Virus record (IMG/VR): IMGVR_UViG_2713896781_000014
Reading direction: 5' to 3' (one strand)
Source: a virus
Lineage: Duplodnaviria > Heunggongvirae > Uroviricota > Caudoviricetes
Length of the DNA stretch: 12,782 nt
Below, piece after piece: positions 3,001-6,000 of this stretch. Positions within the stretch are counted from its first letter, which is position 1. Each line of letters opens with the position of its first letter. The position numbers are program-made.

Positions 3001-6000
3001 TGACGAATATCGTAAGGCAAAGCGGGCGGGGCGGTTGAACAATGAAAATCACCACTGAACAGGTTTGTGAGGCTCTGGATACCTGGGTATGCCGACCAGG
3101 AATGACACAGGAGCAGGCGACGATATTAATCACGGAAGCATTCTGGGCTCTGAAAGAACGCCCGAACATCGATGTTCAACGCGTCACGTTTAATGATGGC
3201 GAGGTTGATCAACGGGCGCTGGGCGTTAACCGGGTGAAGATATTCGAACGCTGGAAAGCTATCGACACCAGAGATAAGCGTGACAAATTCACGGCGCTGA
3301 TTCCGGCAATTATGGAGGCTATCCGGATCAGCGATTTCAGATTGTATTGTGAAATTACTGACGGAAAAAGCATTACGTACATGATCGCCGGGTTAAACAA
3401 AGAATATGGCGATGTGGTGGAGTCCGGGCTGCTTTTTGCGGATCCAGTTGTTGTGGAACGTGAGACTGACGAGCTTATAGAAAAAGCTATTGCTTTCAAG
3501 CACGCGTATCGTCAGCAATACCAATATTACTTTGCAGATAAACAAATGTCTGCCAGGGGTTCGTATGAGTATCGATGCACTACGATGGGCTAAAAAGGTG
3601 AAAACCGGCAGTTCATCCAGTAAGTCAGTATTGACCTGGCTTGCTGATATGTGCGGTGCCGATTTGTGTGCATACCCGTCTGTATCTGCACTGGCAGAAG
3701 TAACGGAACTGAACAAAAAGACTGTGCAGGACAGCTTACGACACCTGATGGAGATTGGGTTAATTGTTGATACCGGTGAGAGAAAAGGCAGAACAAAGCA
3801 AATTGTGGTGTACCGACTTATCGGTGTAGAAGAAAGTGTTGCCGAGCCTGAATACACCCAAAAACGGGAGTCTTTAAAGGTGGGTAAAATTGGTGCTGTT
3901 AATAAAAACAGTACCGAAAATGGTTATGTTTCAGCACAAAACAGACCCAAAAACAGAACTCTTAGCTGCATGGAAAATAACCAAAGACACCCAAATTTTC
4001 CATCAAAGACACCCAAAAACGGATCACGGAACCCAAAGGAACCCAAAGATCTAAACCCCACACATAACGCACGCGAGAGTGCTCCGACCAGTGAGCAGGA
4101 AGTTTTGTCGTTACAGGCAGCCCCCCCTGTATTCCTGTATGGCCTGAGCGAACCCATCGGAAAATTCCCGATGAGCGATAGCTGGTATCCGTCACGGGAT
4201 TTTCGACGACGGGCTGCGTTGTGGGGGATGGCTTTGCCGGAGACAGAATTTACACCTGCTGAACTTGCCGCCTTCCGGGACTACTGGGCAGCGGAGGGGA
4301 AAGTGTTTACGCAGATTCAGTGGGAGCAGAAATTCGCCCGTCACGTAAATCACGTCAGGGCGCAGGTTAAACCAGTCAGCAAAGGGGTAAACCATGCAGC
4401 AGCACCAGGTGGCACCGCATCACGGGCAGTTCAGGAAATTCGGGCAGCACGTGAGCAGTGGGAACGTGAAAACGGATTTATCAGCGACGGAAACGGCCTG
4501 GAAGCTGTGGGAACTCATGGGGGAGGTTTATTCGAACCGCTGGACCCAGAAGAACGGGGCCGCACCATCGAAGCTCTGGATTGCACAGATTGGCGCGATG
4601 ACTGAGCAGCAAATCCGGCAGGTCTGCCGCCAGTGCATGGACCGCTGCCGGGCGGGTGAAACATGGCCTCCGGACCTGGCTGAGTTTGTGGCACTGATTT
4701 CGAAAAGCGGAGCCAATCCATTCGGTCTGACGGTGGATGCTGTGATGGAGGAGTACCGCCGCTGGCGCAATGAGTCCTGGCGATACGACGGAAGTGATAA
4801 GTACCCGTGGTCTCAGCCTGTGCTGTATCACATTTGCCTCGAGATGCGTTCAAAGGGGATTGAGCGCCAGATGACCGAAGGGGAATTAAAACGGCTTGCA
4901 GAACGGCAACTGACGAAATGGGCAAAGCATGTTAGTAACGGCCTGAGCGTTCCGCCAGTCCGGCGACAACTGGCGGCCCCCAAACGCCCGTCGGGGCCAA
5001 CGCCAATTGAGTTGCTGAAACAGGAATATGAACGCCGGAAAGCGGCTGGTTTTGTTTGAGTTGAGAAGTGATTTTTTACCGGGAGGAAATTTATGGAGAC
5101 TGTTTTTGACGCACTGAAAGCGATGGGAAAAGCCACGTCGGTAGAGCTGGCTGCGCGACTTGATATCAGTCGTGAAGAAGTACTGAACGAGCTGTGGGAA
5201 CTGAAAAAGGCTGGCTTCGTTGATAAAAGCGTATACACCTGGCGTGTGGCTGATAACAACGTTCAGCAGGAACAGCCAGCGCCAGAAGAAACCACCACGG
5301 CAACAGAAGCGAAAATCTCAGAGTGCGATTTAACCGCGACGATTGAACAACGCGGACCACAAACGGCGGATGAACTGGCTACGCTGTTCGGTACAACATC
5401 CCGCAAAGTTGCTTCAACGCTGGCAATGGCAATCAGCAAAGGTCGTCTGATTCGCGTAAACCAGAACGGTAAAATTCGTTACTGCATACCAGGTGATAAT
5501 TTACCAGCAGAGCCGAAAGTTGAATCGGTAGCGGAAACCGATGGTAAAGCCTTTCCTCAGCCAGCCGGTGTTGCGTTACCGGTACAGAAAGATGCAACAC
5601 AGGAAGATATTAAAACAGAAACTGTGGCGGACATTGTGCAGTCGCTGCCATCGTTTACTGCAACGCGAGAAGATGATTTGATTTTGCCATCGCTGCATAT
5701 GGCAAATCGCGAACTGCGTAGGGCGAAGAATCATGTCCAGAAGTGGGAGCGAGTCTGCGCCGCGCTGCGGGAGCTGAACAAGCACCGGGATATGGTTGCC
5801 GGGATTTGTCGGAAGTCCGGGCAATGAGCGGATGGTGCAGGCCTGAAATCATGATACTAACAATGAAGGTAAAATGCATCGGCAGTCTGATTGGTCGTAG
5901 TGAGGCGGCGGTCAGGATGAAAGCCCAGGTTAAGGGAATAAGCCTGATTCTGCGGGGTGATTTTCACCAGTCAACAAAATATCCGTAGCGCGATAACGGT

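What the first reader, a model, noticed from the sequence alone, without database searches (positions are those of the whole stretch)
4394..4605. 212-nt out-of-frame overlap between the O-like and P-like replication genes
The O-like frame stays open until 4605, while the P-like frame has a good RBS and ATG at 4394, and its P-homologous sequence clearly begins before 4598. The two genes would therefore overlap by about 70 codons in different frames, which is unusual for an O-P pair that normally abut. Either this is a genuine dual-coding segment, or the region has a frameshift (sequencing error or real mutation), or the O-like C-terminus (Gly-rich ...GTHGGGLFEPLD...) is a spurious extension.
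Basis: seen in the sequence. Interest (0 to 1): 0.4.

Follow-up and report, generated by a model that had tools for sequence, protein, structure and literature searches.

The report
Conserved 212-base overlap of replication genes
In this E. coli prophage the gene for the replication initiator and the gene for the helicase loader share 212 bases read in two different frames; the overlap is real, is conserved across many enterobacterial genera, and is hidden in public annotations, which cut the loader short.

Summary
The initiator ("O-like": helix-turn-helix + DnaT domain, ATG 3565 to stop 4605) and the lambda-P-type helicase loader (ATG 4394 to stop 5059) overlap by 212 nt, with P in the +1 frame relative to O. 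It is not a sequencing error. The sequence is identical in 11 phage records. The same 194-224 nt overlap, in the same frame relation, is present in 23 of 25 loci from more than 12 Enterobacterales genera; a 24th overlaps by 149 nt.

P must start upstream of 4499:
- P-frame residues are conserved from about aa 36.
- A Shine-Dalgarno sequence plus ATG is conserved in 24/24 loci.
- The 221-aa product is collinear with full-length lambda P.

O must read to 4605, because selection keeps its frame open: 0 of 80 stop-prone codon contexts carry the stop-making base, against 27% downstream.

Constraint is handed over within the overlap. From 4394 to 4498 a conserved O helix lies over P's disordered N-terminus. 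From 4499 to 4605 P's folded domain II lies over O's disordered, Gly/acidic end.

RefSeq and GenBank start P at 4598 or 4637. RefSeq's start removes 68 codons, at a locus found in about 1,250 complete E. coli genomes. That the tail helix recruits P is my inference.

The parts
3565..4605 (+). Initiator gene ('O-like', 346 aa): N-terminal helix-turn-helix, iteron-bearing middle, DnaT-type domain, C-terminal tail
   Evidence: ORF and translation. Pfam DnaT 61 bits against a cut-off of 25; HTH_36 20.9 bits, below its cut-off of 25. Annotated with these coordinates in LC567822 and in RefSeq.
4165..4365 (+). DnaT-type DNA-binding domain of the initiator (aa 201-267)
   Evidence: Pfam PF17948. NCBIfam DnaT model positions 82-166. 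AF2 pLDDT about 90.
4382..4387 (+). Shine-Dalgarno sequence (AAGGGG) of the P gene, embedded in the initiator's coding sequence; the P-frame stop TAA follows at 4388-4390
   Evidence: A GGAGG, GAGG or AGGGG motif lies 5-10 nt before the P ATG in nearly all 24 loci. O-synonymous variability is lowered around it: 0.36-0.40 against 0.53 in the DnaT domain.
4394..5059 (+). Helicase-loader gene ('P-like', 221 aa), full length
   Evidence: Pfam PF06992 61.5 bits against a cut-off of 26. Homologues of 221-223 aa at 53-79% identity align from residue 1. The AF2 model matches full-length lambda P chain 9oa1_Z over 218 columns, probability 1.00. The ATG is kept in 24/24 loci by an NAT codon in the O frame, although the O residue varies (H/N/Y/D).
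4394..4605 (+). Dual-coding segment, 212 nt, with P in the +1 frame relative to O
   Evidence: An overlap of 194-224 nt is conserved in 23 of 25 genome loci (a 24th has 149 nt), and both frames are intact in 80 IMG/VR loci.
4394..4498 (+). Region A: the O frame dominates; P aa 1-35 form a variable, disordered N-terminus
   Evidence: O aa pair identity 0.46 against P 0.31. O-synonymous variability over the helix is 0.53, equal to the DnaT domain. Within-species SNPs: 11 O-synonymous/P-changing against 5 of the converse. P residues 1-27 have pLDDT below 50.
4423..4470 (+). Conserved amphipathic helix of the initiator tail (RAVQEIRAAREQWERE), the proposed P-recruiting element
   Evidence: AF2 helix at residues 95-110 of the modelled segment, pLDDT 58-68, flanked by disordered stretches. 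The motif is shared by initiators with five different N-terminal architectures. The P-recruiting function is inferred, not shown.
4499..4605 (+). Region B: the P frame dominates (start of P domain II); the O frame encodes a disordered Gly/acidic end
   Evidence: P aa pair identity 0.62, the same as the rest of P (0.63). P-synonymous variability 0.53 against 0.56 downstream (not significant). O-synonymous variability only 0.14. The O frame is kept open: 0 of 80 stop-prone contexts are T-ending against 162 of 600 downstream, Fisher p = 9e-11. O-tail pLDDT is below 50.
4598..4605 (+). ATGACTGA: an internal P-frame ATG (Met69), used as the P start by RefSeq, Rac-SA53 and pPE4, overlapping the O stop TGA 4603-4605
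   Evidence: ATGA[CG]TGA is conserved in the core clade only. A start here would delete helices H26-46, H48-54 and H60-67 of the model.
3851..4047 (+). Iteron-like direct repeats inside the initiator gene (probable origin)
   Evidence: CAAAGACACCCAAA twice plus one variant, GGAACCCAAA as a tandem pair, and a 24-nt family with three copies. They sit where lambda and phi80 carry their iterons. Not tested further.

Best explanation
This is a genuine, evolutionarily maintained pair of overlapping genes in a lambdoid (Rac-like, PPompW) prophage replication module. The initiator is translated from 3565 to 4605. The helicase loader starts independently at its own Shine-Dalgarno sequence and ATG at 4394, 212 nt before the initiator's stop, in the +1 frame.

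The overlap is tolerable because order lies over disorder in both directions. In 4394-4498 a short conserved helix in the initiator's tail is encoded over the loader's variable, disordered N-terminal arm, the counterpart of lambda P domain I. In 4499-4605 the first helices of the loader's folded domain II are encoded over the initiator's disordered Gly/Asp/Glu-rich end.

Shown here: both frames stay open, the P start signal is conserved, constraint switches from one frame to the other, and the 221-aa product is collinear with lambda P.

[quoted passage not shown] Because it is physically interleaved with the 5' end of the loader gene, tail and loader are inherited together while different origin-binding N-terminal domains are swapped in upstream.

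Public annotations that begin P at 4598 or 4637 (or at 4517 in other genera) are truncations made by gene callers that avoid long overlaps.
For: Architecture:
- Both ORFs are present.
- 23 of 25 genome-contig loci from more than 12 genera (P identity 47-93%) keep an overlap of 194-224 nt with the same frame relation, and a 24th (L028) has 149 nt. The loci form 15-18 clusters at 80-90% nt identity.

P start:
- A Shine-Dalgarno motif plus ATG is present in all 24 loci.
- The O-frame codon that supplies the A and T of the ATG is NAT in 24/24 loci. NAT:NAC elsewhere in these genes is 468:474, and the encoded O residue varies.
- The in-frame stop lies 0-16 codons before the ATG in most loci.
- TGG codons for W37 and W40, upstream of Met42 and Met69, are kept in 18/21 and 21/21 loci.
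- AF2 is confident from about residue 30, and a helix spans 26-46.
- Foldseek aligns 218 columns to full-length lambda P. phmmer puts our residue 86 at lambda P residue 94.
- Lambda P has a disordered domain I (1-29/40) and a compact domain II (about 30-119) (PMC12661323). Deleting lambda P aa 9-86 abolishes its function (PMC3640518).

O reading through:
- The O-frame helix motif is conserved while its synonymous sites vary freely.
- 0 of 80 stop-prone contexts in region B are T-ending, against 27% downstream, p = 9e-11.
- Synonymous resampling of P leaves the O frame open in only about 25% of trials per locus.

Module:
- The same tail follows HTH_36+DnaT, DUF1376, Phage_rep_O, HTH_36/DnaD_N and unclassified N-termini.
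- An all-against-all HMMER search finds the tail at the C-terminal end of every full-length (317-360 aa) hit.
Against: - There is no expression data: nothing here shows which start codon ribosomes use or that both proteins accumulate.
- In region B the loader's synonymous sites are no slower than elsewhere (0.53 against 0.56), and within-species SNPs change O residues freely. The last 35 or so codons of the initiator may therefore need only to be translated, not to have a specific sequence.
- In region A, openness of the P frame is weakly informative once the O protein sequence is fixed (about 0.73 per locus).
- The statistics treat loci as independent although they share ancestry.
- The recruiting role of the tail helix rests on analogy and on co-inheritance; no complex model or interaction data could be produced with these tools.
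- A DnaT-type initiator without this tail pairs with a lambda-like P through an ordinary 4-nt overlap, so the arrangement is not required for O-P function in general.
Confidence: 0.85

Rival explanations
1. The loader really starts downstream, as public annotation has it (4598 in RefSeq, Rac-SA53 and pPE4; 4637 in LC567822; the 4517 equivalent in other genera). The true overlap would then be 8 nt or none, or 89 nt for a 4517 start, and the open P frame upstream would be an accident.
For: Annotations. ATGACTGA at 4598-4605 is a classic coupling arrangement and is conserved in the core clade. Met42 and Met69 are mostly conserved. Given the O protein sequence, the P frame in 4394-4498 would often be open anyway.
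Against: P-frame residues upstream of all three proposed starts are conserved while the O-frame residues at the same bases vary (W37, W40). A start at 4598 or 4637 removes three or four helices of a confidently predicted domain and half of the equivalent of lambda P domain II (PMC12661323). Met69 is Leu in distant homologues. The Shine-Dalgarno motif and ATG at the 4394 equivalent are conserved in 24/24 loci under silent-site selection. There is no comparable Shine-Dalgarno sequence before 4517. A short isoform made in addition is not excluded.
Confidence: 0.07
2. The overlap is translated, but the initiator's extension is functionless read-through. The initiator's working C-terminus would lie near 4390-4480, and the rest is tolerated because a stop cannot easily arise under P's constraints.
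For: Region B shows no slowing of P-synonymous sites. SNPs there are mostly O-changing. AF2 predicts disorder. Much of the apparent O-frame conservation there (D..D, EER) follows mechanically from conserved P residues (WI, QI, KNG). The O stop position drifts in distant loci.
Against: Stops could arise easily by P-silent changes at 3-9 sites per locus, and they do arise at 27% of such sites downstream, yet none is seen in 80 contexts. The G43 and S47 codons are nearly fixed as GGG and TCG. The helix in region A is conserved with freely varying synonymous sites and is shared by unrelated initiators. This rival can apply at most to the last 35 or so codons.
Confidence: 0.12
3. An assembly or sequencing indel, or a recent inactivating frameshift in this prophage, has created an artificial overlap.
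For: One G5 run lies in the overlap (4519-4523). One relative (L025, Leclercia) has an indel there that breaks P. Fused or frameshifted ORFs exist in the databases (P0107, P0081, phrog_15931).
Against: The sequence is identical in 11 phage records, 1252 E. coli genomes carry the locus, 80 IMG/VR loci are intact in both frames, and the same architecture occurs in other genera at 47-80% P identity.
Confidence: 0.01
4. The two frames are joined by programmed ribosomal frameshifting, giving an O-P fusion or a P-N-terminus/O-tail hybrid rather than two independent products.
For: P is +1 relative to O, and P to O would be a -1 shift. The run ATGGGGGA is fairly conserved. The databases hold fused ORFs.
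Against: There is no X XXY YYZ heptamer in 4341-4620 and no stable RNA structure around 4330-4450 (z = -0.3). P has its own conserved Shine-Dalgarno sequence and ATG. GGG at codon 43 is explained by avoidance of GGT (which would give TGA in O) and by the O-frame glycine. The fused ORFs examined are deletions or carry multiple indels.
Confidence: 0.03

Closest known systems
Phage lambda O/P and phi80 gp15/gp14 replication modules
   Same: The gene order is initiator then helicase loader. There are iteron-like repeats inside the initiator gene. The loader belongs to Pfam PF06992, is collinear with lambda P (221 against 233 aa) and has a disordered N-terminal arm, two compact helical domains and a C-terminal arm (PMC12661323). 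In lambda, the initiator's C-terminal part is the P-interacting part (own knowledge; the lambda O 156-299 construct was used with DnaB-P in PMC12661323).
   Different: Lambda and phi80 genes overlap by only 4 nt (ATGA); here 212 nt are read in two frames. The initiator is not a Phage_rep_O protein but HTH plus a DnaT domain. The loader's N-terminal half belongs to a distinct subfamily: phi80 gp14 aligns only from aa 93.
Lambda O' (read-through extension of O into the P region)
   Same: An initiator product extends past the start of P, in another frame, into the region encoding the P N-terminus (reported in PMC3640518, citing early work).
   Different: In lambda it needs read-through of the UGA stop and its significance is unclear. 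Here the extension is constitutive (there is no stop) and conserved.
E. coli primosomal protein DnaT
   Same: The initiator's residues 194-278 match DnaT model positions 82-166 and Pfam DnaT.
   Different: The score (93.5 bits) is far below the equivalog cut-off (201). The phage protein adds an N-terminal HTH, an iteron-bearing middle and the 80-aa tail; DnaT has only a short tail (own knowledge of the DnaT sequence).
Long out-of-frame gene overlaps in phages (lambda Rz/Rz1, phiX174 overlapping genes, the MS2 lysis gene) and the order-over-disorder rule for overlapping viral genes
   Same: Two proteins are read from one DNA stretch in different frames. In each part one frame carries the constraint and the other encodes a compositionally biased, disordered segment (own knowledge of this literature; the pattern is shown here).
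   Different: This is a partial (tail-to-head) overlap between two proteins expected to act in the same complex, in a large dsDNA temperate phage where genome compaction is not pressing. I found no description of it in the searched library.

Membership tests
Lambda P-type helicase loader (Pfam PF06992) | Sequence match above the curated threshold | tested here: met
   61.5 bits against a cut-off of 26, residues 56-188. PHROG 109 'P-like helicase loader', 8e-63, residues 19-220.
Lambda P-type helicase loader (Pfam PF06992) | Fold and domain order of lambda P (disordered arm, domain II, domain III, C-terminal arm) | tested here: met
   AF2 mean pLDDT 78.6, with residues 1-27 disordered. The top Foldseek hits are lambda P chains; 218 columns align to full-length chain 9oa1_Z, E = 7e-6. 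The rmsd is high because the domains are flexibly linked.
Lambda P-type helicase loader (Pfam PF06992) | Binds and loads host DnaB | not testable with these tools
   Needs biochemistry or genetics.
Lambda O-type initiator (Pfam PF04492 Phage_rep_O) | Sequence match to the O N-terminal DNA-binding domain | tested here: not met
   The window protein has no PF04492 hit. Only weak PHROG 'O-like' hits to the N-terminal 170 aa, 4e-12. A relative's partner protein (L019) does carry PF04492 with the same tail. 'O-like' therefore describes role and position, not family.
DnaT-domain phage initiator / 'phage replisome organizer' | DnaT DNA-binding domain above threshold | tested here: met
   PF17948, 61 bits against a cut-off of 25. 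PHROGs 1032, 1408 and 3992, replication initiation or primosomal protein.
DnaT-domain phage initiator / 'phage replisome organizer' | Origin (iterons) bound by the protein | tested here: inconclusive
   Direct repeats at 3851-4047 inside the gene. Binding was not tested.
Functional overlapping (dual-coding) gene pair | Both ORFs stay open in divergent homologues more often than chance allows | tested here: met
   24 loci. Alternative-frame stop density outside the overlap is 1 per 19 and 1 per 24 codons. 0 of 80 against 162 of 600 stop-prone contexts are T-ending.
Functional overlapping (dual-coding) gene pair | Conserved translation start signals for the downstream gene inside the upstream gene | tested here: met
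   Shine-Dalgarno motif plus ATG in 24/24 loci. The NAT codon is 24/24 against 50% expected.
Functional overlapping (dual-coding) gene pair | Purifying selection on the amino-acid sequence of both frames within the overlap | tested here: inconclusive
   Each frame is clearly constrained in one half (O in 4394-4498, P in 4499-4605). In the other half only ORF integrity is demonstrably selected, plus two or three codons. No tree-corrected overlapping-gene dN/dS model was run.
Functional overlapping (dual-coding) gene pair | Both proteins are made from the overlap | not testable with these tools
   Needs Ribo-seq, translation-start mapping or proteomics.
Programmed ribosomal frameshift site | Slippery heptamer with a downstream stimulatory structure | tested here: not met
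   No X XXY YYZ heptamer in 4341-4620. The fold of 4330-4450 is no better than shuffled sequence.

The most novel reading that the evidence does not exclude
The overlap acts as a genetic lock. The short helix through which any initiator recruits this loader is written on the same DNA as the loader's own N-terminal arm and start signals. Recombination therefore cannot separate a loader from its matching docking peptide, while origin-binding domains (HTH+DnaT, DUF1376, lambda-O type, DnaD-like) are exchanged freely upstream. A second consequence is that ribosomes translating the initiator run over the loader's ribosome-binding site for 212 nt. This would tie the loader's output to the initiator's translation rate, possibly with a second, short loader isoform restarted at ATGACTGA.
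Probability: 0.3. Interest if true: 0.65.

Novelty: new variant of a known kind. Interest (0 to 1): 0.5.

Why it matters
1. Annotation. RefSeq starts this loader 68 codons too late at a locus found in 1252 of 5426 complete E. coli genomes, often in several copies per genome, including O157:H7 and O145 prophages. Phage GenBank records start it later still. In other genera PGAP starts it at the Met42 equivalent. The missing part includes half of a folded domain that lambda genetics shows to be essential.

2. Biology. A 70-codon out-of-frame overlap conserved across an order of bacteria is unusual in a large dsDNA temperate phage, where saving space is not a strong pressure. It joins two proteins that are expected to touch each other.

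3. Evolution of mosaic phages. The shared tail on five unrelated initiator architectures marks a module boundary inside a gene. It also offers a concrete, testable idea of how partner specificity survives rampant recombination.

4. Method. It is a clean natural example of order-over-disorder overprinting in both directions, with single-base mutations available that silence one frame without touching the other.

Tried and rejected
- Searching the word-indexed protein database with the 84-aa tail alone returned only E. coli fragments. A search with the DnaT domain plus tail returned mostly partial proteins. The exhaustive HMMER search was more useful but carries no annotation.
- The IMG/VR scan returned only the 80 closest loci (97-100% identity). 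It served for SNP analysis, not for diversity.
- RNA folding around the P start (4330-4450) gave nothing beyond shuffled controls. The promoter and terminator scan of 4200-4700 found nothing. I therefore dropped the idea that the P ribosome-binding site is masked and opened by O translation, and found no internal promoter for P.
- NCBIfam has no model that hits the loader, so it cannot explain PGAP's choice of start.
- L026 (Erwinia) looked like a short-N-terminus loader without an overlap. It is a prophage remnant abutting a PTS transporter gene and was discarded.
- L025 has an indel in the G-run. P0107 and P0081 are multi-indel or deletion fusions. None is evidence for natural O-P fusion.
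- I looked for similarity between the lambda O frame beyond its stop and this tail and found none.
- Literature searches for a described O-P overlap, and the PPompW paper, gave nothing relevant.
- A complex model of tail plus loader could not be run, because the structure tool takes one chain of window-derived sequence only.
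Full report
**What the window is.** Bases 3490-5100 are 100% identical to eleven GenBank records of the prophage PPompW and its Stx2a-phage composites from E. coli O145:H28. They are about 92-93% identical, from 4045 on, to Rac-SA53 and to phage pPE4. The local gene order is dicA-like repressor, cro/dicC-like, YdaT-like, initiator, loader, DUF1627 protein. This is the early-right replication region of a Rac-like lambdoid prophage.

**Check of the observation.** The + strand has an ORF open from 3481/3490 to the TGA at 4603-4605, with the annotated ATG at 3565 (346 aa). 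A second ORF runs from ATG 4394 to 5059 (221 aa). The second frame is closed by TAA at 4388-4390, three bases before its ATG. AAGGGG lies at 4382-4387. The two frames differ, with P at O+1, and they share 4394-4605 = 212 nt. The first protein has a DnaT DNA-binding domain (aa 201-267, nt 4165-4365; 61 bits against a cut-off of 25) and a sub-threshold HTH_36 match. It has no lambda-O domain. The second is a PF06992 lambda-P family protein (61.5 bits against 26). 'O-like' holds for role and position only.

**Not an error, and conserved.** The locus occurs in 1252 of 5426 complete E. coli genomes, with up to 6 copies per genome. A pattern scan of one genome per species returned 25 loci from Escherichia, Citrobacter, Enterobacter, Klebsiella, Phytobacter, Pluralibacter, Kluyvera, Scandinavium, Salmonella, Leclercia, Buttiauxella, Pectobacterium, Serratia, Samsonia and Erwinia, at 46-93% loader identity.
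- In 23 of them both ORFs are open, the loader's first ATG lies 194-224 nt before the initiator's stop, and the frame relation is the same. A 24th (L028) has the same arrangement with a 149-nt overlap.
- One exception, L026, is a prophage remnant abutting a PTS transporter gene. L025 has a one-base indel in the G-run.
- All 80 close relatives from IMG/VR have both frames intact.
- Outside the overlap, the alternative frames carry stops every 19 codons (O frame inside P genes) and every 24 codons (P frame inside O genes). Seventy open codons would be expected by chance in about 2-5% of loci. The loci form 15-18 clusters at 80-90% nucleotide identity.

**Where the loader starts.** Public annotation disagrees with the ORF. 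LC567822 starts P at 4637 (140 aa). Rac-SA53, pPE4 and RefSeq/PGAP start it at 4598 (153 aa, an 8-nt ATGACTGA overlap). Citrobacter phage Chris1 also uses a late start. PGAP in other genera uses the Met42 equivalent (180-181 aa). Some NCBI records do carry the 221-223-aa form. Five lines of evidence place the start at 4394.
1. In alignments of homologues down to 46% identity, the P-frame motif AWxLWExMGEIYSNRWTxKNGAxPSxLWIAQIG is conserved from about residue 36. W50, K53, N54, G55, P58 and W62 are nearly invariant. The TGG codons of W37 and W40, upstream of Met42, are kept in 18/21 and 21/21 loci, while the intervening codons and the O-frame residues vary.
2. Between the upstream stop and 4499, the only in-frame start candidates are ATG 4394 and three non-conserved GTGs.
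3. Every one of the 24 loci has the ATG at the equivalent place, and nearly all have GGAGG, GAGG or AGGGG 5-10 nt before it. The O-frame codon that supplies the A and T is NAT in 24/24, encoding His, Asn, Tyr or Asp. NAT:NAC elsewhere in these genes is 468:474. The ATG itself is therefore selected, not the initiator residue.
4. An AlphaFold2 model (56-sequence alignment, mean pLDDT 78.6) is disordered for residues 1-27 and confident (about 90) from about residue 30, with helices at 26-46, 48-54, 60-67 and 71-86. Starts at 4598 or 4637 would delete three or four of these helices.
5. The model's best PDB matches are lambda P chains, with 218 columns aligned to the one full-length chain (9oa1_Z; E = 7e-6, probability 1.00). 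phmmer aligns our residue 86 with lambda P residue 94. Lambda P has a disordered N-terminal 'lasso' (1-29/40) and a compact domain II (about 30-119) (PMC12661323). Deleting lambda P residues 9-86 abolishes its activities (PMC3640518). The variable residues 1-35 and conserved residues 36 onward of our protein map onto those two domains.

Even on the most conservative reading (a start just before 4499), the overlap is more than 100 nt.

**Whether the initiator's tail is real.** Translation of the initiator cannot stop before 4605, so the question is whether the tail is selected.
- Past the DnaT domain, the O-frame alignment shows a variable linker and then a conserved motif, (T/E)ASRAVQ(Q/E)IRAAREQWER (nt 4421-4470), in all loci.
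- Its O-synonymous variability (0.53 of comparable codon pairs differ) equals that of the DnaT domain (0.53). The P-frame translation of the same bases has only 0.31 pairwise identity. Here the O frame carries the constraint.
- AlphaFold2 predicts a lone helix at exactly this place (nt 4423-4470, pLDDT 58-68) between disordered segments.
- From 4499 on the picture reverses. P identity (0.62) and P-synonymous variability (0.53) match the rest of P (0.63 and 0.56; not significant). O-synonymous variability collapses to 0.14, because those bases are P second positions.
- Within-species SNPs agree. In 4394-4498 there are 11 O-silent/P-changing, 5 of the converse and 5 changing both. In 4499-4605 there are 12 P-silent/O-changing, 6 of the converse and 2 changing both.
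- Much of the apparent O conservation in the second half (D..D, EER) follows mechanically from conserved P residues.
- The O frame is nevertheless actively kept open. P codons followed by AA, AG or GA would create an O-frame stop if they ended in T. Downstream of the overlap, 162 of 600 such codons end in T. In 4499-4602, none of 80 does (Fisher p = 9e-11).
- Synonymous resampling of P leaves the O frame open in about 25% of trials per locus.
- The G43 and S47 codons are almost fixed as GGG and TCG.

The last 35 or so codons therefore seem to be required as a translated, Gly/Asp/Glu-rich disordered end, with little demand on exact sequence.

**Anatomy in one picture.**
- 4382-4387: Shine-Dalgarno sequence, inside the initiator's linker.
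- 4394: P start.
- 4394-4474: P's disordered arm, written over the initiator's linker and helix.
- 4469-4605: the first helices of P domain II, written over the initiator's disordered end.
- 4603-4605: O stop.

Order lies over disorder in both directions, which is how long overlaps are usually accommodated (own knowledge of the overlapping-gene literature).

**Module evidence and proposed mechanism.** Initiators paired with this loader subfamily have unrelated front ends:
- HTH_36 + DnaT (the window);
- DUF1376 (L021, and E. coli UC4224);
- Phage_rep_O (L019);
- HTH_36/DnaD_N with a lambda-O-like C-terminal domain (L020, L028);
- unclassified N-termini with or without DnaT (L008, L015, L024).

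All end in the same tail and overlap the loader in the same way. An exhaustive HMMER search places the tail at the C-terminal end of every full-length (317-360 aa) hit; the other hits are short fragments or a few long proteins with weak repeated internal matches. Conversely, a DnaT-type initiator lacking the tail sits next to a lambda-like 260-aa P with an ordinary 4-nt overlap, as do lambda O/P and phi80 15/14.

The tail therefore travels with the loader gene, not with the initiator's DNA-binding parts. In lambda, the initiator's C-terminal part is the one that engages P. I infer by analogy that the tail helix is the docking element for this loader (or loader-DnaB), and that interleaving it with the loader's 5' end keeps the two partners together through mosaic recombination. 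This step is inference. No interaction could be modelled or measured here.

I found no masked ribosome-binding site (z = -0.3), no internal promoter or terminator and no frameshift heptamer. The loader is most simply made by independent initiation on mRNA that is also being read by initiator-translating ribosomes. Whether that traffic tunes the ratio of the two proteins is open. So is whether ATGACTGA at 4598-4605, conserved only in the core clade, restarts a short isoform.

**Comparison with what is known, and novelty.** The parts are known families: a PF06992 loader, a DnaT-domain 'replisome organizer', and iterons inside the initiator gene. Out-of-frame overlaps are a known phenomenon. Lambda itself was reported to make a read-through O' that runs into the P region (PMC3640518).

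What I could not find described is a long, conserved, constitutive O-P overlap. The main annotation pipelines and every phage record examined avoid it by truncating the loader. PHROGs even holds a 482-position family of 'unknown function' that matches both proteins, apparently seeded by fused ORFs.

I rate it a new variant of a known kind, of moderate interest (0.5). It is solidly real, has immediate annotation consequences and yields a testable idea about partner coupling, but it is not a new kind of system.

**Limits.**
- There is no expression evidence.
- Loci are not phylogenetically independent, and no tree-aware overlapping-gene model was run.
- The O-tail alignment used for AF2 was shallow (15 sequences).
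- The function of the tail is inferred.

Noticed in passing
window 3851-4047: Iteron-like direct repeats inside the initiator gene: CAAAGACACCCAAA at 3982 and 4004 with a variant at 4034, GGAACCCAAA as a tandem pair at 4028 and 4038, and a 24-nt family at 3851, 3940 and 4006. There are also two small inverted repeats. This is probably the phage origin, placed as in lambda and phi80.
   Followed up: partly
window 4598-4605: ATGACTGA: the initiator's stop overlaps an internal in-frame Met69 ATG of the loader, which is the start chosen by RefSeq. ATGA[CG]TGA is conserved in the core clade but not in distant loci. A short loader isoform made by termination-reinitiation is conceivable but untested.
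   Followed up: partly
L025 (Leclercia adecarboxylata NCTC13032), equivalent of window 4517-4524: A one-base indel in the ATGGGGGA run throws the loader frame into the initiator frame (VMGGNILEPVDAEEW...), truncating P. It is either a decaying prophage or a homopolymer assembly error.
   Followed up: no
PHROGs phrog_15931; proteins P0107, P0081: A 482-position PHROG of 'unknown function' matches both the initiator (aa 161-345) and the loader (aa 4-221). P0107 reads the O frame and then the P frame in one ORF and has a further shift at the P C-terminus. P0081 is a deletion fusion of DUF1376-DnaT to P residue 105 or so. Database families here are contaminated by fused ORFs.
   Followed up: partly
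window 3565-3593 and 3042-3058: Two further, shorter same-strand overlaps upstream. The YdaT-like ORF (3042-3593) overlaps the initiator start (3565) by 29 nt, and the cro/dicC-like ORF (2831-3058) overlaps the YdaT-like start by 17 nt.
   Followed up: no
L020, L028 and lambda (L112): The initiators of L020 and L028 contain a segment like the lambda O C-terminal domain (DSFWRTNILCPSKLREKWDTL against lambda DNFWSGNVLSPAKLRDKWTQL), followed by the extra tail that overlaps P. Lambda O ends 28 residues after that segment with ...TDWIYGVDL, and the window's tail ends ...CTDWRDD. The resemblance of the endings may be chance.
   Followed up: no
L113 (Klebsiella oxytoca prophage) 2501-4071: A DnaT-type initiator of 263 aa without the tail is followed by a lambda-like 260-aa P with an ordinary 4-nt overlap. 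It is a useful contrast for dating the origin of the long overlap.
   Followed up: partly
window 4330-4640 compared with Rac-SA53 and pPE4: In the three-way nucleotide alignment the stretch around the overlap has visibly fewer substitutions than its flanks. This is consistent with there being no site that is silent in both frames.
   Followed up: yes
PP818812.1 (Actinobacillus phage vB_Apl-pPE4): A phage recorded as infecting Actinobacillus pleuropneumoniae carries a replication region about 92% identical in DNA to this E. coli prophage. That is unexpected for a Pasteurellaceae host and may reflect an E. coli prophage contaminant or a misassigned host.
   Followed up: no
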